From an uncultured candidatus Porisulfidus sp. (GTDB lineage: Bacteria > Pseudomonadota > Gammaproteobacteria > Poriferisulfidales > Oxydemutatoraceae): a DNA stretch of 64,000 nt. The notes beneath the pieces are model-generated. The model saw nothing but the letters and a program-made list of their open reading frames with translations. It was not told where the DNA came from and did not search any database. The DNA lies in NCBI GenBank assembly GCA_965199685.1, contig OZ241323.1:2529940-2593939 (forward strand), given 5' to 3'. The position numbers and the translations under genes are program-made. Shown one piece after another: positions 2,201-55,876 of this stretch. Positions within the stretch are counted from its first letter, which is position 1, and the number at the start of each line of letters is the position of its first letter.

Positions 2201-2214
2201 ACGAGCTGCTGAAA

Positions 2215-2468
2215 AAATGGTATTCCCCTTCTATGGAGGGGTGACAGGCCTATGTATTTTGTAATACACGCGTTTAGCAATCATGCTGAGGTTCTGCACA
2301 GTGTCACGCCGATTGACCTACTGGTTCAATCGGCGGCTATATCTGACGGGGTGGTTTTTTGCGTACCCACCATTTAGGACAAGCCTTAGCTTGTCTGACC
2401 TACATACCCATGTTAAGGTTCTGCACAAAGTTACGCCGTTTGTTGCAACAGCAACAAACGGCGGTATA
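2215..2468. repeat. Mosaic of short palindromic repeat modules (families P1-P4), locus R1
   Basis: It contains the palindromes cccctccaaaggagggg and ccgattgacctactggttcaatcgg, each flanked by the box gaggttctgcacagtgtcacgcc. It also contains ggacaagccttagcttgtc and ccgtttgttgcaacagcaacaaacgg. The same modules recur at the other repeat loci. Confidence 0.7.
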
Positions 2469-2496
2469 TAATTCTCTCAAACGGTTTGCTGTAGTT

Positions 2497-3336
2497 ATGC
2501 GATTATTGATTTTAATGTTGATTTTGCTTCCGAGATTTTTCGGTTATGCCGGAGAACACACTGAGGTACATCAGGCGTGTAGTTTGCTTGGCAACAAGCT
2601 GTCCTCGGTAAGCGTGCAAGAGTGTCTGAATCTGCAACTCGTCGGAACTGGTGCTTATACCGAGCAAGGGCACGCAATCCTATACAAGGAATACCCGCCG
2701 CTGGCGAGTAGAAAACCGCTGGCACGGGTTTTGTTTATTGGTGGTACTCACGGAGACGAGTATGCTTCGTTTAGCGTCTCTTTTAAGTGGATGGCAATAC
2801 TAGACCGCCATCATTCGGGGTTATTCCACTGGCATTTTGCACCGGCGATCAACTTGGACGGTTTGCTAAAAAGCCCTGCCACACGCACCAACGCCAATGG
2901 GGTAGATCTAAATAGAAATCTGGCAAGTGCCGATTGGGAAAGCGAAGCATTGTCGTATTGGATGCAGCAAACTGATAGCAACCCCCGTCGTTATCCCGGA
3001 CAATCTGCGCGCAGTGAAAGCGAAAGTCGTTGGCTGGAGCAGGAAATTGAAAACTTTCAACCTGATGTAATCGTCTCGCTACATGCGCCTTATGGCTTGG
3101 TTGACTACGACGGGCCGGCATCAGTAAAGCCTCCCACCTTTCTAGGTTCTTTGAAGTTTAGCGATCTAAAAACCTTTCCCGGTTCTTTAGGCCGTTATGC
3201 CGGCGAAGACTTGGCAATACCAGTGCTAACGATAGAATTGAAATCGGCGCGTTATATGCCCAGCGACCATGATTTGCGAACGATGTGGGTGGATCTAGTG
3301 CGCTGGCTTCGCTATAACGTGCCGCAATCCGACTAA
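2497..3336 (+). CDS. M14 zinc carboxypeptidase family protein (succinylglutamate desuccinylase/aspartoacylase/MpaA-like), secreted
   Basis: Zinc-ligand motifs are present: GGTHGDE (HxxE), NANGVDLNRNL (the M14 NRN motif) and SLHAPYG (the third His). A hydrophobic N-terminus follows the internal Met at 2497. The track ORF start at 2359 runs through a repeat element and is unlikely to be real. Confidence 0.6.
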   Translation: MRLLILMLILLPRFFGYAGEHTEVHQACSLLGNKLSSVSVQECLNLQLVGTGAYTEQGHAILYKEYPPLASRKPLARVLFIGGTHGDEYASFSVSFKWMAILDRHHSGLFHWHFAPAINLDGLLKSPATRTNANGVDLNRNLASADWESEALSYWMQQTDSNPRRYPGQSARSESESRWLEQEIENFQPDVIVSLHAPYGLVDYDGPASVKPPTFLGSLKFSDLKTFPGSLGRYAGEDLAIPVLTIELKSARYMPSDHDLRTMWVDLVRWLRYNVPQSD

Positions 3337-3730
3337 GTATGGGGCGGTTGAAAAAGTACCGCTATTGTATAAACCCAACCGCTTGCGCCATTTGGTTTTG
3401 GTTTCCATAAACGAAATGAATGAATGGATTGTTTGTTCAAGAACAACGCGTTAGGGAGGGCATGTGGGACTGTTGAAAAATAGAACCGCCGTTTGTTGCA
3501 GTAGCACAAACGGCGTGACTTTGTGCAGAACCTTAACATAATTGCTAAGCACATGCATTGCAAAATGCATAGGCCTGCCACCCCTCCAAAGGAGGGGAAT
3601 ATACTAATGCAGGTACTTTTTCAACAGCCCTATGTTAGCCCTCCCCTACAGGTGGTTATCGTTAATTTAGTGGTGCGTGGCGGTTACGTTTGTGCAGTGG
3701 GGCGGTACTTTTTCAACAGCCTCACATTCA
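3337..3730. repeat. Repeat-module mosaic, locus R2 (includes ctgttgaaaaagtac-type MITE ends)
   Basis: It contains gggcggttgaaaaagtaccgc, the module aaccgccgtttgttgcagtagcacaaacggcgtgactttgtgcagaacc, the module catgcattgcaaaatgcataggcctgccacccctccaaaggaggggaat, and two gtactttttcaacag ends. Confidence 0.7.
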
Positions 3731-3735
3731 GTCGT

Positions 3736-4902
3736 TTATACCCGCCCTTCAAAAATAATTTTCCATTCGCCATCCTCGCGTTGCCAAATTTGCTTTTTAC
3801 GATAAGCGATGTTGTAGTTATTGCTTTTATAGTCTTGGTCAAAATGCACGGTATAACGTTCCGGCTTCGTTGAATAGCGGAATAAATCTATCTCTTTAAT
3901 TGCCACCTTAACGAAGGTTTTCTTTTTAGCGTTGCGACGGGTTTGTTTCAGCATTTGTTGATAATTAAGTTTCATATCTTGATATTCCTCAGAGTAATGC
4001 TCTAAGTACCGTGCTACATCTAAACTTTGCCAATCACTTTGCCATTGTTCTATCTTTGATAATAGTTGTTTCCGGTGTGCTTGCCACGACACGGTATCTA
4101 ACCAGTCGACTTGGTTTGCTAATACCACCGGCGTTTGGGTCGGATCAATGTGATCCTTCAGCCATTGCATGACTGAGTTGCTACTAACGATGCAACCGCG
4201 GCTGGTCTCAGGGGGACGGCTGTAGGTGATACGAGGAACTCCGTGTAGCCATATCCCGGAACCGCTACGGCGTAGGGTTTGATCCCATTGGTTGGGATAA
4301 TTCAACACATAGGCTCCGATCCCATATAGTTCCGGCAATTGATCGTCATCCAAAGTATGGGTGATTTTATACACCCCGCTGGGCGTGCGATTGTCTCCTT
4401 CTCTCTCCTTATTCATACCGTCTTTGCCGGCGGATGCGTAATAGTCAGCAATTAAATGCGGTGTGCCTTGGTGATTTTCGAATACATATAAACGCGAGTA
4501 TTCGGCATCAAACAATAATACATGCCGGTGATTTTGCGACACCTGCATGATATTGGCAGGTAGCTCGTTTGATTTTGGCGGCGGCTGCATTAGGCGCGCA
4601 GTAGCTTCCTCCGCCAAATCGGCAATACGCGCCTTGCTTTGTGCGACAGGGTTCGCCAACAAAGGCGAATGTTGTGCTTGGGCAGCGATTAGATCTGCAT
4701 AGACCATTCTAGCAAGATGAAAGTTCGGGTGGTGTTCCAAAGTATCCACCAAAATAGACTTCGCTTTTTGTACCTCTCCGATAGAGATTGCGGCAAATGC
4801 CTTCTCCAAATTAATTTCAGCGGTTTCTTTTTCTATTGTGTCATTATCGGCAAGCGTGACCGAGGATAGAAAACACAACGCTAAAAAAATCGTTTTGCTC
4901 AT
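3736..4902 (-). CDS. L,D-transpeptidase (YkuD domain) with signal peptide
   Basis: A signal peptide is present (MSKTIFLALCFLSSVTLA). The catalytic YkuD motif HGVP...SRGCIVS (His...Ser-x-Gly-Cys) lies in the C-terminal half. Confidence 0.65.
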   Translation of the reverse strand: MSKTIFLALCFLSSVTLADNDTIEKETAEINLEKAFAAISIGEVQKAKSILVDTLEHHPNFHLARMVYADLIAAQAQHSPLLANPVAQSKARIADLAEEATARLMQPPPKSNELPANIMQVSQNHRHVLLFDAEYSRLYVFENHQGTPHLIADYYASAGKDGMNKEREGDNRTPSGVYKITHTLDDDQLPELYGIGAYVLNYPNQWDQTLRRSGSGIWLHGVPRITYSRPPETSRGCIVSSNSVMQWLKDHIDPTQTPVVLANQVDWLDTVSWQAHRKQLLSKIEQWQSDWQSLDVARYLEHYSEEYQDMKLNYQQMLKQTRRNAKKKTFVKVAIKEIDLFRYSTKPERYTVHFDQDYKSNNYNIAYRKKQIWQREDGEWKIIFEGRV

Positions 4903-5833: not shown

Positions 5834-8563
5834 TCACGATTGGGGATCTGGTCTTTCTGTCGTTGTAGGTAGCTCTTTTAAGATAGAAAGGTCATAGGTT
5901 GTATTGAGATGATAAATCATCGGTCCTTTATATGGCGGTAAAATCTTAACTGTGGCATACTTCATGATGTTGTCTTCAACCAAATAAAGCATTGCATTAT
6001 CTATTTTTTTTCCGCCTTTACCCGAAACAAGTTTTCTTAAATTAGGAAAGTTATAGTAGCGGTATACTTTATAGTCGGATTTTAGAAAATCAAAAAAGTC
6101 GCGCTGATGTATATCGGACATAACATAAAGCCGAGAGCCTTTACTAATTGAATGTTCCAACACTGATTTAATTTGCTCCTTTGATACCGCAAACGGAAAT
6201 ATGCGTCGCTTGTTATCTCTACCTTCAGTCAATGCGGGCAAATGCATACACGCATAATAAACTTTATTTAGAGGAATGCTGTCATGTTGCTGATCCCATC
6301 CACTGCTGTTTACCCTATCTAAAAAATAACGTTGTGCCGTCATTGCATCCTCACGAGATATGCCTAAGGCATTCAGCATCTCATCAACTATTCTAATTAC
6401 TTTCTCCGAGTCCTGTTTTTCTCTCGTTGAAGGTGGCTCCTTAAAGAGCGAAAGGTCATAGACTGTATTGAGATGGTAACTCATCGGTCCCTTATGTGGC
6501 GGTAAAATCTTCACCGTAGCATACTTCATGATGTTTTTTTCAACTAAATAAAGCATCACATTATCTATTTGGCTGCCGTCCTCACCCGAAACAAGTTTTC
6601 TTAAATTAGGAAAGTCATAATAGCGATATACCTGATAATCTGATCTTAGAAAATCAGAAAACTCAGTCCTATGTATATCGGACATGATATAGAGCCGAGA
6701 ACCTTTGCTAATTGAATGTTTCAGCACTGATTGAATTTGCTTTTTTGATGCCGAAAACGGAAATATGGGTTGCCCGTAATCTCTATCTCTGATCGATGCA
6801 CGCACATGCATACACGCATAATAAACCTTATCCAAAGAAATGTCTTCGTGTTGCAAACCACTTATCTCGTGGTTTGTTCTATTTAGAAAATAATGTTGCG
6901 ATGCCATTGCAACTTTACGAGACACGCCTAAGACATTCAGTGTCTCGTCAACTGTTCTATTTACTTTCTCCGAATACGGAAAGTCTATATAGTAGTCATG
7001 TTGATACTTTTCGCAAGTGCTAACATAATCAAATGCCGGGTCTCTGCGAACCAACACATCATAGCGTTGATTCAGCTCCTCGCTGACGATTTCATCTGCA
7101 GCAAGGCTATATACTTTGTCGGGCGCATAACTAGCCAAATCGAATTCTTCCTCTTTAATCCAACCTTGATTGAGTGTACTAGATTTATGGCCTCCTTGTT
7201 CAAACTGAACAAGGATACTGTTTGATAAATCAAGGTAATCCTCAAAACGCAAGTTGATTCTACTATCACCCAAATTATGCGTTGAACTAATAGTAAATGT
7301 TCCGATGACAGGAATTCTATTTAGGTATTGAGCTTCCCTAAAGATAAGGTTCAACATTCCAAACACGTTATCAACACCGGTTTTACGCCCAGACATGGAA
7401 AATAAGAGATATTTGTTCGGCAGTAAATTTTTATTCAATGAAGATATTACTATCAACTTAGGATTTAATTTTTTCCGTTTAGTAACCCAAAATTTTTTAA
7501 TTTGCCTCCAAAACAGTCTCGTGGGTAACCGTTTTTTCACTGGTTTTTTATAGATTGATCTCGTGGATGGTGGTTTCTTTAAAAAAGTTAGATCGTAAAG
7601 CGTATTAAGGTTATAAATCATTGGGGCTTTGTGGGGTGCTAAAATCTTAACCGTGGCATACTTCATAATGTTTTTTTCAACCAGGTAAAGCATCACATTG
7701 TCTATTTTTTTACCGCCCTCACCCGAAACAAGTCCTCTTAATTTGGGAAAGTCATAATAGCGATATACCCGATAGTCTGATTTTAGAAAATCAAAAAAGT
7801 CAGGCTGATGTATATCGGACATGATATAGAGCCTTGACCTTTTTCTAATGGCGTGTTTAACTACCGACTCTATTTGCTCCTTAGCTGCCACAAATGGGAA
7901 TATGGGTTGCTCGTAATCTCTATCTTCAAAAGCTGCACGCACATGCAGACACGCATAATAAACTTTACGCAGAGGAATACTGTCATATTGCTGATCCCAC
8001 CCGCTACTGTTTACCCTATTTAGAAAATAATGTTGTGCCGCCATCGCATCATGGCGAGATATACCAAAAGCATCTAATACCTTGTCGGTAAGACTGTTTA
8101 CTTTCTCTGAATACAGAAAGTCTATCAAGTATCTATCGTATTTATATTTTTTACAAGCGATAGCATACTTAAATGTCGGGTCTCTACGGATCAACACATC
8201 GTAGTGTTGATTCATTTCTTCGGTGACGATCTCATCGGCGGCAAGGTTATATACTTTGTCGGGTGCATAACTAGCTAAATCCAGTTCTTGTTCTTTCATC
8301 CAATCTAGATGAGACGCAGTGGGTTTATGACATCCTTGATCAAGTTGAACAGTGACGCTGTCTGACAAATCAAGGTAATCTTCAAAGCGCAAATCGGTTC
8401 TGTTATCACCCATGTTATGCGTTTGGCTAATATTAAATTCTCCGATAACAGGAATTCTATTTAGATGTTGAGCCTCCTTGAAAATACGGTTCAACATACC
8501 AAACACATTATCAACACCTGTCTTACGCCTAGTCATCGAAAACAAAAGATATTTTTTTGTCAT
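5834..8563 (-). CDS. Fusion of 2.5 tandem fucosyltransferase-superfamily-like GT modules (module D1 aa 1-333, basic linker, D2 aa 384-715, D3 C-terminal half aa 716-909)
   Basis: Each module carries: KYLLFSMxRxxTGVDNxFGMLNRIFxEAQxLNRIPVIG (compare POFUT1 GYLLY...RFGNQ...LAFAKLLNRTLAVP); FEDYLDL; HVRASIxDRD (the H-[LV]-R Arg motif of GT23/GT65 enzymes); and LYIMSDIH (the hhhh[ST]D motif). D3 lacks the N-terminal ~150 aa, and its HVR motif is degenerate (HLPALT). Confidence 0.45.
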   Translation of the reverse strand: MTKKYLLFSMTRRKTGVDNVFGMLNRIFKEAQHLNRIPVIGEFNISQTHNMGDNRTDLRFEDYLDLSDSVTVQLDQGCHKPTASHLDWMKEQELDLASYAPDKVYNLAADEIVTEEMNQHYDVLIRRDPTFKYAIACKKYKYDRYLIDFLYSEKVNSLTDKVLDAFGISRHDAMAAQHYFLNRVNSSGWDQQYDSIPLRKVYYACLHVRAAFEDRDYEQPIFPFVAAKEQIESVVKHAIRKRSRLYIMSDIHQPDFFDFLKSDYRVYRYYDFPKLRGLVSGEGGKKIDNVMLYLVEKNIMKYATVKILAPHKAPMIYNLNTLYDLTFLKKPPSTRSIYKKPVKKRLPTRLFWRQIKKFWVTKRKKLNPKLIVISSLNKNLLPNKYLLFSMSGRKTGVDNVFGMLNLIFREAQYLNRIPVIGTFTISSTHNLGDSRINLRFEDYLDLSNSILVQFEQGGHKSSTLNQGWIKEEEFDLASYAPDKVYSLAADEIVSEELNQRYDVLVRRDPAFDYVSTCEKYQHDYYIDFPYSEKVNRTVDETLNVLGVSRKVAMASQHYFLNRTNHEISGLQHEDISLDKVYYACMHVRASIRDRDYGQPIFPFSASKKQIQSVLKHSISKGSRLYIMSDIHRTEFSDFLRSDYQVYRYYDFPNLRKLVSGEDGSQIDNVMLYLVEKNIMKYATVKILPPHKGPMSYHLNTVYDLSLFKEPPSTREKQDSEKVIRIVDEMLNALGISREDAMTAQRYFLDRVNSSGWDQQHDSIPLNKVYYACMHLPALTEGRDNKRRIFPFAVSKEQIKSVLEHSISKGSRLYVMSDIHQRDFFDFLKSDYKVYRYYNFPNLRKLVSGKGGKKIDNAMLYLVEDNIMKYATVKILPPYKGPMIYHLNTTYDLSILKELPTTTERPDPQS

Positions 8564-8579
8564 ATTCTTAAGTATACTT

Positions 8580-17834: not shown

Positions 17835-18818
17835 CTAGATTACTCGCCTAAGAATTCGATCAACCATTTTTGTACAATCTCGATGCGTAGAATGCACCAA
17901 AAACTGATACGCAGCTCTAACACAGCAAGGAGAGACCATATATAGGTTTAGATCATTTTTTTTGTATAGTTCAAAAGGTACGCGGTCTATCGGGATATAT
18001 CGACCAGTTTCTCTAGCCAAGAGAATAGTTGCCTGCTTCCACTTATGTGCCGCCGAAGGGGTAAGCATATATGCCATGCCCGAAGTCAAGTAAAAATGGT
18101 GTTCCGATGTTTTCTTATACGGTGGAACAATATAATGCTTGCGAGTGACTTTATGCCACGAGCACTTATCTTGATCAGGTAATCCCCCTATTTCGCACGC
18201 TAGGTTCACTATTTGTAACCATAACTCTATTATATGTGCTGATTGTTCAGATGTTTCACTATTTGTTTTGCGCAATCTCTTAAAAAAAAGTTTCATGAAT
18301 TTTATGATTATCAAACGAACAATAAATGGATTTAATAGAGGGTAATATTTTTTATAGCGTATCAGCTTATATAAACCAAAAAATGTAGAGTCATAGAGTT
18401 CCCACATTATTTGGCGAATATACAGTGTAAGGCTAGAGAGCATCAAAACATCCCAGGGCACTTCCTCGGCAACTTTTAATATACTAGGAAATGTAGACAA
18501 TATTTGGACATCATCTTCCAATATACAAGCATGCCGAACATTATGTTTTATAAGTAAATTCTGGGCTTTAATATGGCTTAACAAACAGCCCAACTTTCCG
18601 TCATTGGAGTTTTTTTTGTATAAAAACTCCATATCAGTTTTATCAATATCTAACCACCTAGCAATTTTTGTACGATATGCCTTAGAATTTAGGTTGTGCT
18701 TGTCAATGGCTTCTACAAACCGATATTTAAGATTCAAAGCATCAAGCTGCCTTCGCATATATAATTTTCTTTCCGGGGTACGTTTTAGGTTGATGATGTA
18801 AATAGGAGGATAAGGCAT
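17835..18818 (-). CDS. Glycosyltransferase family 25 (LPS/LOS beta-1,4-galactosyltransferase-like, Lic2B/LgtB family)
   Basis: GT25 motifs are present: IYIINLKRTPERK, KLGCLLSHIKA and ACILEDDVQI. Confidence 0.65.
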   Translation of the reverse strand: MPYPPIYIINLKRTPERKLYMRRQLDALNLKYRFVEAIDKHNLNSKAYRTKIARWLDIDKTDMEFLYKKNSNDGKLGCLLSHIKAQNLLIKHNVRHACILEDDVQILSTFPSILKVAEEVPWDVLMLSSLTLYIRQIMWELYDSTFFGLYKLIRYKKYYPLLNPFIVRLIIIKFMKLFFKRLRKTNSETSEQSAHIIELWLQIVNLACEIGGLPDQDKCSWHKVTRKHYIVPPYKKTSEHHFYLTSGMAYMLTPSAAHKWKQATILLARETGRYIPIDRVPFELYKKNDLNLYMVSPCCVRAAYQFLVHSTHRDCTKMVDRILRRVI

Positions 18819-18892
18819 TGTCTGAAATTTCTCATTGGATAGAACTATAGAATATAACTTATAATTATTAAAATATTATTGTAACACTACGA

Positions 18893-19213
18893 GTGAAAAA
18901 CACAGTCATGATTCGTCAAATAGGTCTTCTAAGGTTGATGCTTTATGTAGCGGGCTTGCTCGTTATTATTTTTCTACCAGAACCGGGGGTGCAAACCGAT
19001 GTTGAGTGGCCTGCAATACTAACTACGGTGGTAGTGCCAGCACTTGCCCCGATTATTTTCATGGTGATTTTATTTGACCTTGTCGTGTCCAAAGTAGTAA
19101 ACAAAGGAAATGAAAACCCAATGCCAGCAGCTAAATTTTTTTGGGTTGGCTTAGCCATTGCACTGATCATTCTCTTAAGATGGCTACCTTATCTGCTTTC
19201 GCTCACATACTAA
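18893..19213 (+). CDS. Hypothetical small membrane protein (3 predicted TM helices)
   Basis: The ORF is strongly hydrophobic and fits exactly into the gap between the GT25 gene and mrcA. Confidence 0.35.
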   Translation: MKNTVMIRQIGLLRLMLYVAGLLVIIFLPEPGVQTDVEWPAILTTVVVPALAPIIFMVILFDLVVSKVVNKGNENPMPAAKFFWVGLAIALIILLRWLPYLLSLTY

Positions 19214-19222
19214 TCCGAATAA

Positions 19223-21646
19223 TCAAAAAAGTTTTTCCAAATTCTCCTCTTTGTCTTTGCTCCCCGGCAAAGGCGCAATTTCCTTAGGTAAGTAATTCCT
19301 TCTAAAAGTTTCCGATATCGCATTGGCATCGCTGGGGTGCGCAAGCACGCCAGTTTGTGCGTCTACTTTTGCACTAATAATCTCGGGAGGTCTATAAAAT
19401 AAGGTTTCGTCTTTCCCGGACAGAACTTTCTCCATAAAATCTATCCAAATAGGTAATGCTGCAACCGATCCCGCCTCGCGATCCCCTAACGGTTGCTGAT
19501 TGTCAAAACCAACCCAAACGGTGCAGACTATATCGCGGTTAAAACCTGAAAACCAAGCGTCGTGTTGGTTGTTGGTTGTGCCGGTCTTGCCAGCGATGTC
19601 GCTACGTTTTAAGGTGCGGTAAGCTTTGCGCCCGGTGCCTAATTGGGCCACACTTTGTAGCATACTGGATAACTGGTAAGCAATATCAGGTGGAATGACT
19701 CTAGGCATAAATTGTGTTGCATCATCCGAGATTGCAGTCTCCGATACGATTTCCGTCGCTACTTCGTTGCTAGTGTTTTCTTGGTAACAATTTTCGGCAC
19801 AAGGTTGCGGTGGAGATGCTTCAAAGATCGGCTTTTCGTTAGCGTATATTTTTTCGATAAAATAAGGCGTAATCAAAAACCCACTGTTGGCAAATGCCGC
19901 ATAGCCGCGTGCAATTTCTAGAGGTGTTGCCACACCCGAACCCAATGCCACCGTTAAATTATAAGGATGATCCTTACGCTCAAAACCAAAGCGCATGATG
20001 TAGTCCAAAGTTTTTCTTAACCCTAGCGCATCTACTAATTTCACCGAAACCATATTGCGCGAATGGGTGAGTGCTTCTCGAAGACGTGTGGGACCGAAAA
20101 ATTTACCGCTATAATTCTCAGGGCGCCAATCTTGCCTGGAAAATGTCTCGCTAAACACCACTGGTGTATCGTTGACTATCGTTGCCGGCGTATAACCTTC
20201 CGACAATGCAGCCGAATAAATAAAAGGCTTGAAACTGGAACCCGGTTGTCGCTTTGCTTGGGTTACACGATTGAACTTACTCTGATAAAAATCAAAACCA
20301 CCGGTCAATGCAAGCACTGCACCAGTATTCGGATTCAACGCGACCAACGCGCCTTCAACTTCCGGAATCTGCATCAGCTGTCGTTGTCCTTCGTCTTGCT
20401 GTAGAAGCCATACGATATCGCCTTTTTGTGCTAGTTTTGTAGCATCTTCTAACTTTGGCCCCACATAATTTTGATTGAGGTAAGGTTGCCACTGCCAACT
20501 TGGGCGCGTGAGTGTAGTCTCTAGTTCGCCTTTAGGGATCACTTGTATCGTCTCTTTAGCCGACTCCAATACAATCGCCGGTATAAGTCCTCCCACTTTA
20601 GGTAGATTTCTTAATTCTTTTTCCAGTGCCTCGGGATTACTTAGGACTTCAGCCGCAATTTGTTCCTTGACACCGCGCCAACCGTGGCGACGGTCATAGT
20701 CAAGTAGCCCACGTCTTAAACTGGCTTGAGCTTCTTGTTGCATCGTTAGACGAACGGTGGTGTATACATCAAAACCATCAGAATAGGCTTTGTCTCCGTA
20801 TTGCTCAACCATGTAGGCACGTACCATCTCAGCAACATAGGGAGCGTCTAATTCTACTTTGATATCGTACTCGGCTGCGGTAATCGGTGTTGCCATCGCC
20901 GTTTCATATTCGGCTGAAGAAATCATTTCCAGTTTGAGCATACGCCCTAGGACATAAGTCCGACGCTCCAGTGCCTTTTGAGGATTGGCAAGCGGATTAT
21001 ATATTGAAGGAGCTTTGGGCAAACCGGCGATCATCGCATTTTGAGCCAAAGTCAATTCGCCGATATTTTTTCCATAGTAGATTTCGGCAGCAGCAGCAAT
21101 GCCATAAGCTCGTTTACCCATAAAAATTTTATTCAGATACAAATTGAGTATTTCTTCTTTGCTGAGCAAACGCTCAATAATCAGGGCGAGGTAAATCTCC
21201 TTTATTTTTCGCTCATAGGTGCGCTGGTTGGTCAAGAAAAAGTTGCGCGCGAGTTGCATGGTAATCGTACTACCGCCCTGGGTGCGCTGACCTGTTTCTA
21301 TTAAATTGATGGCGGCGCGTATCAAGCCTTCGTAATCTACGCCTAGATGTTCGTAAAAACGATCATCCTCGGCAGCGATGAAAGCGTCTATGATTTGACT
21401 AGGCACCTCTGCTATATCAATAGGCACACGACGCTTATCACCGAAAACCGCAATAAGGTTACCCTCGGAGGTATAAACTCTGAGCGGTGTTTGCACCCGA
21501 ATCGTTCTAATTTCTTCCAACGACGGGAGTTCCGGCGCAATATAGATGTATACTGCTACAACGACAACAACACCCAGGGTGAGTGTTGCGGTAATAAATA
21601 GTAGTAATCGTTTTATGAATTTGAACACGATAGGTACATAGAGCAA
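19223..21646 (-). CDS. mrcA: Penicillin-binding protein 1A (bifunctional transglycosylase/transpeptidase)
   Basis: GT51 motifs (EDDRFYEHLGVDY, GGSTITMQLARN) are followed by the transpeptidase motifs SSFKPF, SRN and KTGT. Confidence 0.9.
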   Translation of the reverse strand: MLYVPIVFKFIKRLLLFITATLTLGVVVVVAVYIYIAPELPSLEEIRTIRVQTPLRVYTSEGNLIAVFGDKRRVPIDIAEVPSQIIDAFIAAEDDRFYEHLGVDYEGLIRAAINLIETGQRTQGGSTITMQLARNFFLTNQRTYERKIKEIYLALIIERLLSKEEILNLYLNKIFMGKRAYGIAAAAEIYYGKNIGELTLAQNAMIAGLPKAPSIYNPLANPQKALERRTYVLGRMLKLEMISSAEYETAMATPITAAEYDIKVELDAPYVAEMVRAYMVEQYGDKAYSDGFDVYTTVRLTMQQEAQASLRRGLLDYDRRHGWRGVKEQIAAEVLSNPEALEKELRNLPKVGGLIPAIVLESAKETIQVIPKGELETTLTRPSWQWQPYLNQNYVGPKLEDATKLAQKGDIVWLLQQDEGQRQLMQIPEVEGALVALNPNTGAVLALTGGFDFYQSKFNRVTQAKRQPGSSFKPFIYSAALSEGYTPATIVNDTPVVFSETFSRQDWRPENYSGKFFGPTRLREALTHSRNMVSVKLVDALGLRKTLDYIMRFGFERKDHPYNLTVALGSGVATPLEIARGYAAFANSGFLITPYFIEKIYANEKPIFEASPPQPCAENCYQENTSNEVATEIVSETAISDDATQFMPRVIPPDIAYQLSSMLQSVAQLGTGRKAYRTLKRSDIAGKTGTTNNQHDAWFSGFNRDIVCTVWVGFDNQQPLGDREAGSVAALPIWIDFMEKVLSGKDETLFYRPPEIISAKVDAQTGVLAHPSDANAISETFRRNYLPKEIAPLPGSKDKEENLEKLF

Positions 21647-21689
21647 TAAACTAAATTGGGCATAATCTCAATTTTAGCACAGAGCATAA

Positions 21690-22202
21690 ATGAACATATT
21701 CCTAATCGGGCCGATGGCGGCGGGCAAAAGCCATATTGCCAAGACTTTGGCAAAATGTATGAAAAGTCGTTTTTACGATACCGACGAGTTGATTTGTCGA
21801 TACGCCGGTATGGATATTCCGACAATATTCAAAAACGAAGGTGAGGCAGGCTTCAGAAAGCGCGAAGCCGAAGTGATACAAAAGCTCATAGGCAATCGCG
21901 ATATAATCGTGGCAACCGGCGGCGGTGTGGTTCTAGATCAACAAAATTGCAAGAACATGAAAGATAATGGTACAGTAATTTATTTAAGCACATCTTTGGA
22001 TACCCGTTATGAAAGAATACAAAATCCAACCGGACGCCCTTTGCTGATGGGGGGAGACATCTATGAAACGATGCAAAATTTGGATCGTGTTCGCATCCCT
22101 ATATACGAAGCACTTGCCGATTTTATCGTTGATAACAACGGCATCACCGAATCGACAGTGAAAAAAATCTTTGCATATATCCACAACACAAAACAGATAT
22201 GA
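21690..22202 (+). CDS. aroK: Shikimate kinase
   Basis: It has a Walker A motif (NIFLIGPMAAGKSHIAK), is 170 aa long and is translationally coupled to aroB (4-nt overlap). Confidence 0.85.
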   Translation: MNIFLIGPMAAGKSHIAKTLAKCMKSRFYDTDELICRYAGMDIPTIFKNEGEAGFRKREAEVIQKLIGNRDIIVATGGGVVLDQQNCKNMKDNGTVIYLSTSLDTRYERIQNPTGRPLLMGGDIYETMQNLDRVRIPIYEALADFIVDNNGITESTVKKIFAYIHNTKQI

Positions 22203-23272
22203 CGACTTTAACGGTAGAACTTGGCCGGCGTAGTTACCCCATCCGTATAGGACGAGGTTTACTGGCGCAAGTCGGTGAATTATTGACGCAAAACTGGCAA
22301 GGGTCTCATCTGGTGATACTTTCAGACGAAGATGTCGCACCGCTTTATATGCAAACGGTATGCGATGCAATCGGCACAGAATTGAAAATAGATCAAATCG
22401 TGATACCGGCTGGTGAATCGTATAAAACATTGCAGACTTTTGAGCAGATCTGTACCAAACTACTACAGTACCGAGTCGAGCGAGATGCGCTACTCGTTGC
22501 ACTCGGCGGCGGCGTGGTCGGAGATATTGCCGGTTTCGTTGCCGCAAGTTATCTACGTGGTATTGCTTTTGCACAGGTTCCTACGACTCTACTTGCTCAG
22601 GTAGATTCTTCGGTAGGTGGCAAAACTGCGGTCAACCATGCCTTAGGCAAAAACATGATTGGGGCTTTTTATCAACCTTGTTGTGTTATCACTGACTTGA
22701 ATACGCTTGACACGCTACCACCTAGACACTATGTTGCAGGACTTGCTGAGGTTGTTAAATACGGCTTGATTGCAGATGCTGATTTTTTCACTTGGTTAGA
22801 GGATCATGTAGAAGCACTACTTGCGCACGATGACGAGGCTTTGTGTTATGCGATAGAACGCTCGTGTGCTATCAAAGCGGAAATCGTCGCTGTTGATGAA
22901 TTAGAGCAGGCCGGCAAGCGCGCCTTGCTTAATCTAGGGCATACCTTTGGGCATGCTATAGAAGCGACCTTGGGCTACGGGTTTTGGCTACACGGTGAAG
23001 CTGTGGGGTGCGGTCTTGCGCTTGCTGCACAATTGTCTCTGAACTTGGGTTACCTATCTAAAGAAAGCCTTGACCGCATTGTCTCATTACTCAATCGTTT
23101 TGGGCTAGCAACATCCAAACCGACCACTTTAGATACACAAGCATTGTTAGATGCAATGACATTGGATAAAAAGAACAAAGGCGGACAGCAGCACTATATT
23201 TTATTGCACACAATAGGAGACGCTTTTGAGACCAATCAAGTGAAAATACAAGCGGTAAAGGATGTTTTATAA
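22199..23272 (+). CDS. aroB: 3-dehydroquinate synthase
   Basis: DHQS motifs are present: GGGVVGDIAGFVAASYLRGIAFAQVPTTLLAQVDSSVGGKTAVN and HTFGHAIE. Confidence 0.9.
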   Translation: MTTLTVELGRRSYPIRIGRGLLAQVGELLTQNWQGSHLVILSDEDVAPLYMQTVCDAIGTELKIDQIVIPAGESYKTLQTFEQICTKLLQYRVERDALLVALGGGVVGDIAGFVAASYLRGIAFAQVPTTLLAQVDSSVGGKTAVNHALGKNMIGAFYQPCCVITDLNTLDTLPPRHYVAGLAEVVKYGLIADADFFTWLEDHVEALLAHDDEALCYAIERSCAIKAEIVAVDELEQAGKRALLNLGHTFGHAIEATLGYGFWLHGEAVGCGLALAAQLSLNLGYLSKESLDRIVSLLNRFGLATSKPTTLDTQALLDAMTLDKKNKGGQQHYILLHTIGDAFETNQVKIQAVKDVL

Positions 23273-23299
23273 TCACACACGGAAATAATCATTTGATGT

Positions 23300-23524: not shown

Positions 23525-23528
23525 ATTT

Positions 23529-24230
23529 ATGGAGAACTACTGGCAAGATTCGGAAGAAAAACAGTTGCGAGTGCCCGAAGATGTTGCAGATCTGGGCTTT
23601 AGAATTGAATGTCGCGGCGGCTTGACGGTGGATCATGCGTATGCTTTGTATGAAGCGATTAGACAAGTATTGCCATGGTTTGAGACAGATCCTGATGTTG
23701 CCCTACATACACTGCACGGAGCCGAATCCGGCAACGGATGGTTAAGACCCTATAAAGAAAACCAATTGCTGTATTTATCCAAGCGAACGAGATTACGGTT
23801 GCGCTTAGCCAACCATCGCTTTGAAGATGCGATGGTTTTAGAAGGACAAACAATTGATGTCGGCAGCTGTTCAATAAAAATAAATAAGCCCACTCTGCGC
23901 ACGCTCAGTACACAAACGACTTTGTTCACTAGATCTTTAGCATCGAGAAATACACAAAACGAGCATGAATTTCTGCACGAAGCAACCAGAATGCTCAACG
24001 CGAAGGGCATACATCCGCAGCGTATGATGGGAGGGCGACAGCACGCGATTAAAACCCCCGATAAAACTCTATACGCTAGAAGCCTTATGATAGTGGACCT
24101 TGCTTTTGACGAAAGCATTGAATTGCAACGCACTGGCTTAGGCACTGAACAGAAGCTCGGCTGTGGTATTTTCCTACCTCACAAAAGTATTGATGCGGTT
24201 CACCAACCCCGAACCGTAGGAGCAGACTAG
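23529..24230 (+). CDS. Orphan Cas6-like RAMP-superfamily protein (glycine-rich loop), function unknown
   Basis: The C-terminal GLGTEQKLGCGIFLP fits the RAMP/Cas6 G-rich loop G-h-G-x5-G-h-G and resembles the CasE tail GIGPAKSMGCGLLSL. The N-terminal DHAYALYEAIRQVLPWF resembles the CasE helix around its catalytic His (DLYQLHQGLWHLFP). No cas genes or CRISPR array are nearby. Confidence 0.3.
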   Translation: MENYWQDSEEKQLRVPEDVADLGFRIECRGGLTVDHAYALYEAIRQVLPWFETDPDVALHTLHGAESGNGWLRPYKENQLLYLSKRTRLRLRLANHRFEDAMVLEGQTIDVGSCSIKINKPTLRTLSTQTTLFTRSLASRNTQNEHEFLHEATRMLNAKGIHPQRMMGGRQHAIKTPDKTLYARSLMIVDLAFDESIELQRTGLGTEQKLGCGIFLPHKSIDAVHQPRTVGAD

Positions 24231-24235
24231 AACCG

Positions 24236-24400
24236 CCGGTTGACCTTGATATATAGGGCTGTTGAAAAAGTACTGTCATCGCGCAAATGTAACCGCTTGC
24301 GCCATTGAATTTATGAAAATGGTAGGGGCGGATTTGCATATCCGCCCGTCAATCGGCGTGACATTGCTTGTTCCACTGAGTCAAGCGATGGGGTTTTGAT
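24236..24400. repeat. Repeat modules, locus R4
   Basis: gggctgttgaaaaagtactgtc...aaccgcttgcgccattgaatttatgaaaa...ggggcggatttgcatatccgcccgtcaatcggcgtgacattgc. Confidence 0.6.
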
Positions 24401-25065: not shown

Positions 25066-25164
25066 GTATCTACTAATAAAATAGTTTATAAATAATTGAC
25101 ATTATAATCAATTTCTATACTATACAAAACTTACGCAAGGCTTCTAGATGAACAAGGTGGTACT

Positions 25165-25743: not shown

Positions 25744-25756
25744 TTATCAAGACGCG

Positions 25757-33780: not shown

Positions 33781-33794
33781 ACACCTTCACTGTT

Positions 33795-34062
33795 CAAATA
33801 TGATATTCCCCTCCTTTGGAGGGGTGGCAGGCCTATGCATTCTGTAATGCATGCGTTTAGCAATTATGTTGAGGTTCTGCACGGTGTCACGCCGATTGAC
33901 CTACTGGTTCAATCGGCGGTTCTATCTGACGAGGTGGTGTTTTGTGTACCCGCCATTTAGGACAAGCCTTAGCTTGTCCGACCTACATACCCATGTTAAA
34001 AGGCTCTGCTCTGACGTTACGCCGTTTGTGCCATTGCAACAAACGGCGGTTCTATTTTTGCA
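33795..34062. repeat. Repeat-module mosaic, locus R5
   Basis: It has the same P1-P4 modules as R1 and R3. Confidence 0.7.
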
Positions 34063-34070
34063 ACAGCCCC

Positions 34071-34385
34071 TTAGATACCGTTTTGCAATACGACGTACTT
34101 TCTCTTAATGTTTTCCTTAAAACTATCAGAAATACTCTCCCAGTCCATGATATCTACCGAAACCAAAACATCGCTCTCTAGAAAAGTTTCCTTTAAGTCA
34201 TAAACCTCGTCTGAGTTACAGTCAAAAACCACCAAGTCCAAATCGGATGTCTCCTGAGCCTCTTGCGTGACGCGAGACCCGTAGACCCAAACTTTTTTAT
34301 CCGGGATATACCGATTGATGATTTCCTTAACCATCCGGAGCTGATCTGCATCTAAATCTATAAGGCGTTCATCCACCATTTTCAT
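34071..34385 (-). CDS. Nucleotidyltransferase (MNT) domain protein, antitoxin-like
   Basis: The minimal NTase motif is VWVYGSRVTQEAQETSDLDLVVFD (GS...D.D). Confidence 0.65.
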   Translation of the reverse strand: MKMVDERLIDLDADQLRMVKEIINRYIPDKKVWVYGSRVTQEAQETSDLDLVVFDCNSDEVYDLKETFLESDVLVSVDIMDWESISDSFKENIKRKYVVLQNGI

Positions 34386-43036: not shown

Positions 43037-43100
43037 GGGGCTGTTAAAAAAGTATTTCTTGAACCGTAGGGGCGGATTTATACCCCGACTTTGCAATAGA
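43037..43100. repeat. Repeat module, locus R6
   Basis: ggggctgttaaaaaagtatttcttgaaccgtaggggcggatttataccccgactttgcaat. Confidence 0.5.
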
Positions 43101-44699: not shown

Positions 44700-44934
44700 C
44701 ATCTCAGTTTTAACACGCATTAACATAAGCCGCAGTCGCGGTGGTGGCTCCGCCTACTCTAATACGAGAGGTGAAAGCATTTTTCCAGTATATATGGGTG
44801 TCAATGATGATTTTTTCGTTGCACCTGGCAATGATTTAACCATCAAGTTTCAGTTTTAGGCGGTTGACCTGATAATTTGGCAAGAAATTGTCCATTGCAT
44901 ACGATTTTGATTCTCTATTGACGATTTTCGGTGT

Positions 44935-45185
44935 TAGCCTTCCCCTACGGTGCATGAAATACCTTTCCAACAGCTCCACATGAGGCTGTTGAAAAAGTGT
45001 CTGCATTGGTACATTCCCCTCCTCTGGAGGGGTGGCAGGCGAAGCCTGACGGGGTGGTTGCAAAGGTTCTGCACAAAGTCACGCCGTTTGTGCTACTGCA
45101 ACAAACGACGGTTCTATTTTCCAACAGCTCCACATGCCCTCCCTAACGCGTTGCGTCTGCAAAAACAATCCATTCATCCATTTTA
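44935..45185. repeat. Repeat-module mosaic, locus R7 (upstream of gyrB)
   Basis: It contains ggctgttgaaaaagtg, cccctcctctggagggg, ggttctgcacaaagtcacgccgtttgtgctactgcaacaaacgacgg and ccctaacgcgttgcgtctgcaaaaacaatccattcatcca. Confidence 0.65.
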
Positions 45186-45377
45186 ATTTACGGTAACCAT
45201 ACAGTAGGCACAGAACGTTTGGAGCTGAGTGGAACGGTACTTTAGGACAGATATATTAGCCCGATTCTAGTGCCGAAAAAACCCAAATTACGGTGCAGAT
45301 GTGCTAAAATATACCACTTGAAAAAAGACCAAATTAAATCTCATTATTAAGTATGTTTTTAACCCCTAATCCCCTAA

Positions 45378-47780: not shown

Positions 47781-48172
47781 CACCCTGTCCTTACATGTCC
47801 AACCGCCACGCGCCACCAAATCATGCAAACCACCCCTAATGCGTTGTCCTTGCATGTCCAACCGCCACGCGCCACCCAACTTATGGCAACCACCCGTAGG
47901 GGAGGGTACTGCATTTTGCGATGAATACGCTGCCCAACATTCTAGAGTTCTGCACAATGTCACGCCGATTGATTTTGATATATGTGATGTTTTTAACGAA
48001 CACAGCATTTAGATTTTGCACAAAGTTACGCCACTTGACCTACTGGCTCAAGTGGCGGGTTCACTCGGCGATAATCGGCGGTTCTACTTGTGCAGACGTA
48101 ACGCGTTTCGGGAGGGCATGTTAGCCCTCCCCTACGGCTCAAGGATACTTTTGCAACAACCCTCAAAATATA
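47781..48172. repeat. Repeat-module mosaic, locus R8, including a ~52-bp tandem duplication (47786..47895)
   Basis: tgtccttacatgtccaaccgccacgcgccaccaaatcatgcaaaccaccc and ttgtccttgcatgtccaaccgccacgcgccacccaacttatggcaaccaccc, followed by the ttctgcaca box modules. Confidence 0.6.
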
Positions 48173-53396: not shown

Positions 53397-53560
53397 CTGG
53401 TAAGGGCGGACAATTTGAAATGCTGATTGACCTACCGGTTCAATCGGCGGCTTTATTCTGCCCAAACGCGTTGCGTCTGCCCAAACAATCCATTTGGGGC
53501 TGTTGAAAAAGTACCGCTATTGCATAAACTCAACCGCTTGCGTTATTGAATTTATGAAAA
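53397..53560. repeat. Repeat modules, locus R9
   Basis: tgattgacctaccggttcaatcggcgg, aacgcgttgcgtctgcccaaacaatccatt and ggggctgttgaaaaagtaccgctattgcataaactcaaccgcttgcg. Confidence 0.6.
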
Positions 53561-53739
53561 CGTGTCTACTATTTGGGATAAGATCATATCTCCATTAAGT
53601 TAAAAACTCTATCATATTACATTGACGTTTTCCACGACATTATCCCATTTTTAGGATTGCATCCAAAGTTGGTTTTCACTCTGTTGCCTCTGCCATATAC
53701 ATAGGAAAAACTGAATTGCTTTCCTTGCCTCACAAAATT

Positions 53740-55725: not shown

Positions 55726-55778
55726 ATCTTCACCTCAGAGATTGAGGATGACGAGGCTTTGAGCTGATTACTAATATT

Positions 55779-55876
55779 GGACTGTTGAAAAAGTATTTTC
55801 TGCCCCTACCATTTTCTTAAATTTAGTGGCGCAAGCGGTTACGTTTGAGCGATGGTGGTACTTTTTCAACAGTCTG
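55779..55876. repeat. Complete ~98-bp MITE-like element with ~15-bp terminal inverted repeats, locus R10
   Basis: ggactgttgaaaaagta...ttaaatttagtggcgcaagcggttacgtttgagcg...ggtactttttcaacagtctgac. The internal sequence matches 3665..3700 (ttaatttagtggtgcgtggcggttacgtttgtgcag). Confidence 0.7.

What the first reader, a model, noticed from the sequence alone, without database searches (positions are those of the whole stretch)
2215..3730. Dense mosaics of short palindromic repeat modules (BIME/MITE-like) filling about 10 intergenic regions
At least five module types recombine in different orders and orientations at 2215..2468, 3337..3730, 16536..16826, 24236..24400, 33795..34062, 43037..43100, 44935..45185, 47781..48172, 53397..53560 and 55779..55876. 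I will call them P1 to P5.

- P1: a hairpin ccgattgacctactggttcaatcgg, flanked by ttctgcacagtgtcacgcc.
- P2: a hairpin ccgtttgttgc-NNNN-gcaacaaacgg, flanked by ttctgcacaaagttacgcc.
- P3: ggacaagccttagcttgtcc.
- P4: catgcattgcaaaatgcatag, followed by cccctccaaaggagggg.
- P5: MITE-like units bounded by ctgttgaaaaagtac...gtactttttcaacag, with the internal sequence tagtggcgcaagcggttacgtttg.

P1 and P2 share a 19-nt box (g)ttctgcaca(a/g)(a/t)gt(c/t)acgcc next to different hairpins, which suggests a common functional core. The six-frame track translates several of these loci as ORFs (2283..2471, 3523..3873, 33851..34108, 44950..45186, 47921..48124). The N-terminus of track ORF 2359..3336 also runs through one.
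Basis: seen in the sequence. Interest (0 to 1): 0.55.

Follow-up and report, generated by a model that had tools for sequence, protein, structure and literature searches.

The report
REP hairpins and nested MITEs
The repeats are real: the intergenic DNA of this sponge-symbiont-like bacterium holds two known kinds of selfish DNA, GTAG-type REP hairpins and small inverted-repeat transposons (MITEs) whose parent insertion sequence and candidate REP transposase both sit in a sister genome, and the MITEs jump into the REP hairpin loops, which builds the mosaics.

Summary
All five motifs are present at the stated coordinates and far above chance. They are dispersed, not local. One of these, Ca. Porisulfidus CBDAVG01, is ~94% identical to the window over the one long shared stretch.

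There are three layers.

1. P5 and the 150-285 bp composites are MITEs. They have an 18-bp terminal repeat, GGGRCTGTTGAAAAAGTA, and 4-bp target duplications. A 1815-bp IS1182-family element in CBDAVG01 carries the same ends.
2. A Y1 (RAYT-like) transposase gene in CBDAVG01 lies between inverted copies of one of them.
3. P1 and P2 are alternative versions of one bulged hairpin inside the same MITE scaffold, with compensatory stem changes.

The IS and MITEs prefer ACAT/ATGT in the REP loop: 63 of 164 ends abut a REP half. That preference produces the nesting.

Verdict: the BIME/MITE-like reading is supported. These are new members of known kinds. Hairpin-in-loop nests without terminal repeats or duplications remain unexplained. 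Neither the IS nor the RAYT is in the window.

The parts
2202..2466 (+). Copy A of the ~270-bp composite MITE. Order: degenerate left terminal repeat (core 2206-2218), CCCCTCC hairpin 2225-2241, P4 2250-2270, P1 unit 2290-2343, P3 (REP-c) 2377-2403, P2 unit 2417-2466. The right terminal repeat is missing.
   Evidence: Module map. Collinear with the copies at 16534-16816 and 33786-34070, and with L028:632-913, which has both terminal repeats. The ortholog in L044 lacks about 125 bp (P4+P1), with retained microhomology at the junction.
3341..3723 (+). P5-type host MITE. It has a terminal repeat at 3341-3358 and another at 3706-3723, linker AACCGCTTGCGCCA at 3377-3390, and a central REP-a hairpin split into 3452-3465 and 3632-3649.
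   Evidence: The two REP-a halves rejoin to give the intact form seen at 48110-48135.
3466..3631 (-). 166-bp MITE (P2 unit 3478-3532, P4 3552-3572, CCCCTCC hairpin 3581-3597) inserted into the loop of the REP-a hairpin of the host element. The duplication ATGT lies at 3462-3465 and 3632-3635.
   Evidence: W 3466-3631, flanks ATGT/ATGT.
16534..16816 (-). Copy B of the ~270-bp composite MITE, lying downstream of glnA in a convergent gap. Its P1 hairpin (16675-16729) is flipped relative to its box.
24225..24372 (+). Half of a P5-type element (terminal repeat 24255-24272, linker 24291-24304, REP-b GTAGGGGCGGATTTGCATATCCGCCC 24322-24347). It sits between the two arms of a split P1 remnant (24225-24245 and 24348-24366).
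33786..34070 (+). Copy C of the ~270-bp composite MITE. It fills the whole gap between two convergent genes (33145-33780 + and 34071-34385 -). The right terminal repeat is at 34053-34070.
43037..43082 (+). MITE end fragment: a terminal repeat followed by a degenerate REP-b (GTAGGGGCGGATTTATACCCC).
44931..44977 (-). End of an earlier MITE: terminal repeat 44960-44977 plus half of a REP-a hairpin (44931-44948).
44982..45131 (+). 150-bp MITE of the 142-bp-core subfamily, carrying the CCCCTCC hairpin and P2. The duplication ACAT lies at 44978-44981 and 45132-45135. It went into the same ACAT as the earlier element.
   Evidence: Direct reading; alignment with 13 other copies.
45132..45200 (+). Remaining 3' half of the target REP-a (GCCCTCCC) with its linker AACGCGTTGCGTCTGCA and the ATGGATGAATGGATTG module.
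47790..47914 (+). Tandem (59-nt period, 2.1 copies) of REP linker units of the AACCGCCACGCGCCA type.
47946..48089 (+). Nested P1 composite. The arms of an outer P1 hairpin (CGCCGATTGA ... ATCGGCGG) enclose a ~105-nt insert that carries its own box and an ACTTGACC/GGCTCAAGT hairpin.
   Evidence: At least 9 copies of this composite exist in the loci. L001 is 98.9% identical over 189 bp.
48090..48163 (-). MITE end with an intact REP-a: terminal repeat 48146-48163, GTAGGGGAGGGCTAACATGCCCTCCC 48110-48135, linker 48090-48107.
53400..53562 (+). REP-b-like stem (GGGCGGA..TCTGCCC) with a P1 hairpin in its loop (53400-53465), then linker 53465-53482, terminal repeat 53496-53513 and linker 53532-53545.
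55778..55876 (+). Smallest complete MITE (99 bp including the GGGR ends). Its flanks are ATAT and ACAT.
61574..61595 (-). Degenerate P1/P2 box remnant (4 mismatches).

Best explanation
The mosaics are intergenic junk-yards made by two transposition systems acting on each other, in a Ca. Porisulfidus-like gammaproteobacterial genome.

System 1 is a REP family. They are joined by conserved linkers into regularly spaced clusters. They are presumably spread by a Y1 HUH 'RAYT' transposase acting on single-stranded hairpins.

System 2 is a family of MITEs, 99-310 bp with their ends. They share the 18-bp terminal inverted repeat GGGRCTGTTGAAAAAGTA with a 1815-bp IS1182-family insertion sequence, whose DDE transposase moves them in trans and duplicates 4 bp. 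The preferred target is ACAT/ATGT in the loop of REP-a. Each insertion regenerates that target, and many MITEs themselves carry a REP. So elements pile up inside one another and side by side.

P1 and P2 are two alleles of one bulged hairpin inside these MITEs. P4 and the CCCCTCC hairpin are other internal modules. Solo P1/P2 units still carry pieces of MITE spacer and look like decayed MITEs.

Shown: the motifs, the terminal repeats, the duplications, the target preference, the partner genes in a sister genome, and stem covariation.

Inferred: that these enzymes actually mobilise the elements, and that they exist in the window's own genome.
For: Dispersal. The window is 93.9% identical to L044 (CBDAVG01) over 2210 bp.

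Partner IS. It is present 3 times at over 99.5% identity (L019:1119-2933, L030, L061) plus an 86% variant in L029. It encodes a 576-aa protein that scores 379 bits on NCBIfam IS1182 (cutoff 270) and matches Pfam DUF772 + DDE_Tnp_1_6. Its ends equal the P5 ends.

MITEs. In 600 kb there are 211 terminal-repeat cores and 56 +/- pairs in discrete size classes. Of the 56 pairs, 22 have identical 4-bp flanks: ACAT 12, ATGT 8, GAAT 1, ATAT 1.

Target preference. 63 of 164 ends abut a REP-a half, and intact REP-a has a single ACAT.

REP. GTAG is the commonest tetramer before perfect hairpins, 110 of 955. GTAG plus hairpin occurs 194 times, against 18-41 for five unrelated tetramers and 87 for GTAC; shifted versions of the motif give 70-137.

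RAYT candidate. L011:6487-6975 has HIH and YIKYNP motifs. It scores 29.4 bits on Pfam Y1_Tnp (cutoff 23), and its best NCBIfam hit is REP_Tyr_transpos. It is flanked by ~100-nt inverted arms that each hold REP-a, and the right arm's REP loop carries a 151-bp MITE. Distant relatives in metagenomes are also flanked by GTAG hairpins.

P1/P2. They sit at the same position in the same scaffold. 96.2% of cells are paired, 5 of 12 pairs show double changes, and 59 double-change cells compare with 13.5 in shuffles.
Against: Neither the IS nor the RAYT gene is in the 64-kb window. Both were seen only in CBDAVG01, a ~94%-identical relative.

The RAYT candidate is below NCBIfam's curated cutoff (58.3 against 80) and is only 20% identical to E. 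coli RayT.

The loci were all selected for containing P1/P2, so densities and proportions from them are biased.

65 of 139 P1/P2 boxes have no terminal repeat within 300 bp.

At least five nested hairpin-in-loop structures lack terminal repeats and duplications at their junctions, so the DDE model does not explain them.

The IS itself has no P1/P2 hairpin, so it is unclear why a DDE-type MITE keeps that stem.

Only one orthologous comparison was possible, and it shows a deletion, not a clean insertion.
Confidence: 0.72

Rival explanations
1. P1/P2, and perhaps the REP hairpins too, are independent mobile units. They insert as single strands into the apical loops of other hairpins, for example 3' of the GTAG present in the P1/P2 loop on the opposite strand. 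The enzyme would be a RAYT-type HUH enzyme. The MITE scaffolds merely carry them.
For: There are at least five apparently independent nests.

- A REP-b hairpin lies directly after the loop GTAG of P1 (L055:7360).
- P1 encloses REP, which encloses P1 (L057:1809).
- A three-level nest occurs at L035:1676.
- P2 encloses an insert with its own hairpin (L031:425).
- In the window, see 47946-48089 and 53400-53465.

The loop CTACTG is conserved across P1 and P2. P1 core coverage has sharp edges and is the highest of all modules. The hairpin occurs flipped relative to its box in 3 of 70 units.
Against: Solo units keep variable lengths of the MITE spacer on their 5' side, so they have no fixed left boundary.

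In the nests the host loop is replaced rather than flanked by a consistent target.

The nested composite at 47946-48089 is itself amplified as part of MITEs, so few events are needed.

No second HUH gene was found in 600 kb.
Confidence: 0.2
2. The hairpins are kept because they work for the host as RNA or DNA signals: transcription terminators or insulators between genes, RNA processing sites (for example for the solitary Cas6 encoded at 23418-24230), or protein-binding sites. Their mobility would be secondary.
For: Compensatory changes keep the P1/P2 stem.

Of the 10 repeat-bearing gaps, 6 lie between convergent genes and 3 between tandem genes.

In the three tandem gaps all P1/P2 units point the same way as the genes.

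The P2 hairpin at 16584-16557 is the top terminator-like hit, with tail AGTTCTATTT.

A lone Cas6 (Pfam 187.8 bits) is present, with no other cas gene among the eleven neighbouring ORFs searched (17835-33161) and no CRISPR array in the window.
Against: Terminator-like sites are not enriched: 22 against 18 +/- 4.2.

The T-run is separated from the stem, and most hairpins (REP, CCCCTCC, P4) have no T-run at all.

No Rfam family matches.

The location pattern is equally what is expected from selection against harmful insertions. Palindromes can also keep pairing through their own copying mechanism. No expression data are available.
Confidence: 0.15
3. The pattern is a local duplication or an assembly artefact confined to this window.
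For: None found.
Against: The same units occur in at least three independently assembled genomes at 67+ loci in different gene contexts. Copies carry different flanks and target duplications.
Confidence: 0.01

Closest known systems
REP / BIME elements and the REP-associated tyrosine transposase (RayT, TnpA-REP) of E. coli and other Proteobacteria, including the REPIN concept
   Same: These are 20-35 nt extragenic hairpins with a conserved 5' GTAG, in many copies, clustered with conserved linkers. A single Y1 HUH transposase gene lies between inverted REPs. Relatives of that gene in other metagenomes show the same GTAG-hairpin flanks.
   Different: The stem sequences are unrelated. Three or more stem classes share one set of linkers. 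Neighbouring REPs are as often direct (27 pairs, mode 123-125 bp) as inverted (24 pairs, mode 103-113 bp), rather than the strict alternating Y/Z pairs of BIMEs. The RAYT candidate is divergent: 20% identity to RayT and below the NCBIfam cutoff. It was seen only in a sister genome.
REP-targeting insertion sequences (IS1397 and ISKpn1 of the IS3 family in enterobacterial BIME loops; my own knowledge) and IS1272 of the IS1182 family, reported to target inverted-repeat structures (PMC5678879)
   Same: An IS that lands specifically in palindromic or hairpin targets. All four sampled IS copies and 38% of MITE ends sit in or next to REP-a loops.
   Different: Here the IS belongs to the IS1182 family and makes a clear 4-bp duplication (ACAT/ATGT), whereas IS1272 was reported without duplications. 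It also has a large family of non-autonomous MITEs with the same specificity. The transposase is at most 42% identical to any plasmid-borne relative and has a 3 x 57-aa internal tandem repeat.
Bacterial MITEs with modular interiors (Correia/NEMIS of Neisseria, ERIC, pneumococcal BOX and RUP; my own knowledge)
   Same: Small, non-coding, bounded by terminal repeats, with target duplications, intergenic, in hundreds of copies, with a modular make-up and subfamilies of discrete sizes.
   Different: Only the 18-bp ends are shared with the partner IS, so these are not deletion derivatives. The interiors are built from hairpin modules, some of which are REPs. One internal hairpin exists as covarying alleles, P1 and P2.

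Membership tests
MITE | Terminal inverted repeats | tested here: met
   The 18-bp repeat GGGRCTGTTGAAAAAGTA lies at both ends of 56 paired units. Examples in the window: 3466-3631, 44982-45131, 55778-55876.
MITE | Target-site duplication | tested here: met
   22 of 56 pairs have identical 4-bp flanks. Intact REP-a has one ACAT and occupied sites have two.
MITE | Small, non-coding, many copies | tested here: met
   Size classes run from 99 to 310 bp with their ends. There are 211 terminal-repeat cores in 600 kb.
MITE | An autonomous element with matching ends that can supply transposase | tested here: met
   A 1815-bp IS with the same ends occurs in CBDAVG01 at L019, L030 and L061, with a variant in L029. 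It is not in the window itself.
MITE | Demonstrated mobility (presence/absence polymorphism or an assay) | tested here: inconclusive
   Only one orthologous locus was available (L044), and it shows an internal deletion, not an empty site. Other overlaps were too divergent.
IS1182 family | DDE transposase matching the family model above its cutoff | tested here: met
   NF033551 scores 379.2 bits against a cutoff of 270. Pfam DUF772 + DDE_Tnp_1_6 also match.
IS1182 family | One ORF between terminal inverted repeats, length 1.3-2 kb | tested here: met
   1815 bp, one 576-aa ORF, 18-bp inverted ends. The size range is from my own knowledge of ISfinder.
REP / RAYT system | Short extragenic imperfect palindromes with a conserved 5' GTAG | tested here: met
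   GTAG precedes 110 of 955 perfect hairpins. GTAG plus hairpin occurs 194 times, against 18-41 for five unrelated control tetramers and 87 for GTAC. The stems fold stably.
REP / RAYT system | A Y1 HUH transposase gene flanked by inverted REPs | tested here: met
   L011:6487-6975 lies between arms 6335-6433 and 6959-7039 plus 7190-7211, which are 80-95% complementary. This was seen in a sister genome only.
REP / RAYT system | The protein belongs to the RAYT family | tested here: inconclusive
   Pfam Y1_Tnp scores 29.4 bits (cutoff 23). NCBIfam REP_Tyr_transpos is the best hit, but at 58.3 bits it is under the cutoff of 80. The HUH and Y motifs align with E. coli RayT. Relatives are flanked by GTAG hairpins.
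REP / RAYT system | The RAYT binds and cleaves its REP | not testable with these tools
   This needs biochemistry.
BIME (E. coli type) | Alternating inverted REP pairs (Y/Z) with defined linker motifs | tested here: not met
   Linkers are conserved, but neighbouring REPs are direct in 27 cases and inverted in 24. The arrangement works like a BIME cluster but is not the E. coli architecture.
Intrinsic terminator | G+C-rich stem immediately followed by a T-run, enriched at gene ends | tested here: inconclusive
   P2 units score (16584-16557, 3502-3485), but the total is 22 against 18 +/- 4.2 in shuffles. The other hairpins lack T-runs.
Known RNA family (Rfam) | Match at the gathering score | tested here: not met
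   Only a tRNA at 34930-35019 matched.

The most novel reading that the evidence does not exclude
The hairpin modules (P1/P2 and the GTAG REPs) grow recursively. Single-stranded hairpins would be inserted into the extruded apical loops of other hairpins by a RAYT-type HUH enzyme that uses the loop's GTAG as target, giving hairpin-in-hairpin-in-hairpin structures. Independently of this, the DDE-type IS1182 element uses the same loops as landing pads. A further speculative link is that the solitary Cas6 at 23418-24230 processes transcripts of these hairpins.
Probability: 0.15. Interest if true: 0.7.

Novelty: new member of a known kind. Interest (0 to 1): 0.42.

Why it matters
1. Annotation. About 4% of this window, and probably a similar share of a 2.2-2.5 Mb symbiont genome, is made of these elements.

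2. Biology. The locus shows a small, host-associated genome in which a DDE transposon family uses the hairpins of a second, HUH-type repeat system as safe landing sites. That would explain how hundreds of copies accumulate without hitting genes.

3. Experiments. It gives defined, testable substrates: an 18-bp end, a 4-bp target in a 6-nt loop, and a candidate RAYT with its REP. These belong to an IS1182-family element and a RAYT from an uncultured sponge-symbiont lineage for which I found no description of repeats.

4. Open mechanism. The hairpin-in-loop nests are a concrete unexplained pattern that full genomes could resolve.

Tried and rejected
- A first search for a RAYT with E. coli RayT (phmmer against six-frame ORFs of 600 kb) gave nothing significant. 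The gene was found only with a motif pattern and then confirmed with profiles.
- Solved structures gave no useful match for the RAYT candidate.
- Orthologous comparison for empty sites worked only for L044, which shows a deletion. L033, L018, L047 and L043 share only genes at 78-86% identity and are not usable.
- A look-up of the window's GlnA in public assemblies found nothing, so the source genome could not be identified.
- Rfam found no family on the repeats.
- Viral contigs gave no P1/P2 match, and five single matches to the terminal repeat that I did not examine and judge consistent with chance. There is no sign of a phage origin.
- The metagenome scan with the RAYT found only distant relatives (37-59% identity), none from this lineage.
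- A CRISPR reading of the repeats was rejected. There is no array, and the 176-bp tandem in L049 has identical 'spacers'.
- The idea that P1/P2 solos are precisely bounded mobile units was weakened, because their 5' flanks keep variable pieces of MITE spacer.
- One call failed on a size limit and three on a frame error.
Full report
OBSERVATION

The sequence at 2215-3730 and at the nine other listed regions contains the motifs exactly as described.

- The 19-nt box occurs 9 times in the window with at most 2 mismatches; 0 are expected from shuffles.
- CTGTTGAAAAAGTAC occurs 10 times against 0.23 expected.
- P3 occurs 3 times, P4 3 times and the CCCCTCC..GGAGGGG hairpin 5 times, all against about 0 expected.
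- A self-BLAST recovers the same intergenic regions plus a weak eleventh at 61558-61598.
- The repeats make up 3.9% of the window.
- As single-stranded DNA, P1, the perfect P2 copy at 2417-2466, P3 and the CCCCTCC hairpin fold far better than shuffles. P4 (z -1.0) and the imperfect P2 copy at 45065-45127 (z -1.3) do not.

ORIGIN AND DISPERSAL

All were in three metagenome-assembled genomes of sponge-associated Gammaproteobacteria: two Ca. Porisulfidus and one Ca. Oxydemutatoraceae, each 2.2-2.5 Mb.

The window is 93.9% identical over 2210 bp to locus L044 of Ca. Porisulfidus CBDAVG01, and 78-86% identical to loci of the other two. It therefore comes from a close relative of CBDAVG01. This is not a local duplication.

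I used the window plus the 67 loci (600 kb) as the working set. These loci were chosen because they contain P1/P2, so densities from them are biased (9.6% repeat).

LAYER 1: MITES AND THEIR INSERTION SEQUENCE

An 1815-bp element with these ends (GGGACTGTTGAAAAAGTA ... TACTTTTTCAACAGTCCC) occurs three times at over 99.5% identity in CBDAVG01: L019:1119-2933, L030 and L061. An 86% variant occurs in L029.

Its single 576-aa ORF matches NCBIfam 'IS1182 family transposase' at 379 bits (cutoff 270), and Pfam DUF772 + DDE_Tnp_1_6. The nearest plasmid-borne relatives are at most 42% identical.

In the 600 kb there are 211 matches to the terminal-repeat core, nearly always preceded by GGGR. There are 56 facing pairs, with core-to-core sizes of 91, 133, 142, 160, 200, 220-245, 283 and 302 bp. 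Of these, 22 have identical 4-bp flanks: ACAT 12, ATGT 8, GAAT 1, ATAT 1.

Only the ends are shared with the IS, so these are MITEs with unrelated interiors.

Complete examples in the window:
- 3466-3631, duplication ATGT.
- 44982-45131, duplication ACAT.
- 55778-55876, flanks ATAT and ACAT.

The regions 2202-2466, 16534-16816 and 33786-34070 are three copies of one ~270-285 bp MITE. L028:632-913 is a copy with both ends intact.

LAYER 2: REP-LIKE HAIRPINS AND A RAYT CANDIDATE

On the opposite strand P3 reads GTAGGTC-GGACAAGC-TAAG-GCTTGTCC.

GTAG is by far the commonest tetramer before perfect 7-bp hairpins, 110 of 955. GTAG plus hairpin occurs 194 times, against 18-41 for five unrelated tetramers and 87 for GTAC; shifted versions of the motif (GGTA, TAGG) give 70 and 137. 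A conserved 5' GTAG is the hallmark of REPs linked to RAYT transposases (established knowledge).

A motif search then found a 162-aa ORF in CBDAVG01, L011:6487-6975, with HIH and YIKYNP motifs.
- It passes Pfam Y1_Tnp (29.4 bits, cutoff 23).
- Its best NCBIfam hit is 'REP-associated tyrosine transposase', but at 58.3 bits, under the cutoff of 80.
- It aligns with E. coli RayT over 143 residues with the catalytic motifs in register, at 20% identity.
- It is single-copy in the 600 kb.

The gene lies between ~100-nt inverted arms (6335-6433, and 6959-7039 plus 7190-7211; 80-95% complementary).

Distant relatives of this protein from unrelated metagenomes (37-59% identity) are also flanked by a GTAG-hairpin upstream and a hairpin-CTAC downstream, in L069, L073 and L074. 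So the RAYT reading rests on gene context as well as on sequence.

Neighbouring REPs are direct in 27 cases (mode 123-125 bp) and inverted in 24 (mode 103-113 bp). The clusters work like BIMEs but do not have the E. coli Y/Z architecture.

HOW THE MOSAIC ARISES

The IS and MITEs strongly prefer the loop of REP-a.
- 63 of 164 bona fide ends abut a REP-a half.
- The 4-mers next to the ends are ATGT (44) and ACAT (36), which are reverse complements of each other.
- Intact REP-a has a single ACAT (33 intact copies). Occupied sites have two.
- Three of the four IS copies sit directly in a REP-a loop. The fourth (L030) has a REP-a half on one side and another MITE's end on the other.
- Even the REP on the right of the RAYT gene carries a 151-bp MITE.

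Each insertion regenerates the target, and many MITEs carry REPs of their own next to their ends. Elements therefore stack.

The window shows this directly:
- 3341-3723 is a P5-type MITE whose central REP-a has received the 166-bp MITE at 3466-3631.
- At 44960-45135 two elements share one ACAT.

An IS1182-family member, IS1272, has been reported to target inverted-repeat structures (PMC5678879).

LAYER 3: P1 AND P2

Aligned copies of the 142-bp MITE have either the P1 or the P2 hairpin at the same position and with the same length. A third subfamily has an unrelated segment there.

Both hairpins have the same architecture: a 10-bp stem, a one-base bulge, 2 bp, and the loop TACT. In 70 distinct units:
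- 96.2% of cells pair.
- 5 of 12 pairs show changes on both sides.
- There are 59 double-change cells against 13.5 +/- 2.9 in shuffles.
- Slid controls pair at 17-50%.

A few variants were amplified many times, so the number of independent events is small; about five or six stem types exist.

Of 139 boxes, 74 have a terminal repeat within 300 bp. Solo units in unique DNA keep variable lengths of the upstream MITE spacer, so I read them as decayed MITEs.

UNEXPLAINED

Several structures have one hairpin unit inside the apical loop of another, with no terminal repeat or duplication at the junctions, and with the host loop replaced:
- Window 47946-48089, a composite present in at least 9 copies.
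- Window 53400-53465.
- L035:1676, three levels deep.
- L031:425.
- L055:7360, where a REP-b hairpin directly follows the GTAG of the P1 loop on the other strand.
- L057:1809.

The P1 hairpin is also found flipped relative to its box (window 16675-16729).

A DDE cut-and-paste step with a 4-bp duplication does not explain these. Two candidates are single-strand HUH insertion into extruded loops and template switching between related hairpins. I could not separate them.

FUNCTION TESTS

No Rfam family matches the repeats. Terminator-like sites are not enriched (22 against 18 +/- 4.2), although P2 units score.

Six of the ten repeat-bearing gaps lie between convergent genes, three between tandem genes and one between divergent genes. 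That fits tolerated insertion sites as well as any host function.

The family match of the MpaA-like gene begins well downstream of the repeat, at residue 76 counted from the ATG at 2497.

COMPARISON AND VERDICT

The finding is real, and the BIME/MITE-like reading is supported. The parts belong to known kinds: REP with a RAYT, MITEs with an IS1182-family partner, and an IS that targets REP loops.

The particular members, their coupling and their host lineage appear undescribed. A full-text search for the genus name returned three papers; judging by their titles and abstracts none deals with repeats.

The main caveats are two. Both partner genes were seen only in a ~94%-identical sister genome. 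Mobility is inferred from anatomy, not from polymorphism.

Noticed in passing
window 23418-24230 (+): A solitary cas6 gene (Pfam Cas6 187.8 bits; NCBIfam cas6_cmx6 121.7 bits, above its cutoff). None of the eleven neighbouring ORFs searched (17835-33161) is a cas gene: they include aroK, aroB, a ParA-like gene, an HNH gene and ferrochelatase. There is no CRISPR array in the window. So a hairpin-RNA endonuclease stands alone in a genome full of hairpin repeats.
   Followed up: partly
window 5834-11964 (-): Four adjacent paralogous ORFs (909, 364, 399 and 363 aa) with DNA-level similarity to each other and no Pfam match. The region has a lower G+C content (0.38-0.40) than its surroundings.
   Followed up: partly
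L019:1949-2441 (inside the IS1182-family transposase gene): Three in-frame tandem copies of a 171-bp unit (57 aa) lie between the N-terminal DUF772 domain and the DDE domain. They are identical in all three IS copies.
   Followed up: no
window 16675-16729; also two units in the loci: The P1 hairpin is inverted (flipped loop and bulge) relative to its conserved 5' box, like flip/flop forms of a palindrome.
   Followed up: partly
L049:6347-6763: A 176-bp tandem triplication of a P3+P1 unit together with its flanking unique sequence.
   Followed up: no
window 38769-38901 and 39556-39687; 53101-53296 and about 55940-56150: Two further pairs of repeated segments, unrelated to the hairpin modules. 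The second pair overlaps small ORFs.
   Followed up: no
L017:1530-2354 and L018:3728-5116: Other transposase-like ORFs sit inside segments repeated at over 99.5% identity in the sister genomes. By my reading of the translations they look like an IS3-type integrase-domain ORF and a 462-aa IS4/IS1380-like transposase; neither was searched against a family library.
   Followed up: no
window 47947-48135 against L001 and L011: Copies of the nested P1 composite in the window and in CBDAVG01 are 98.9-99.3% identical. Shared genes of the two genomes are about 94% identical. This points to recent spread, exchange or strong constraint.
   Followed up: no
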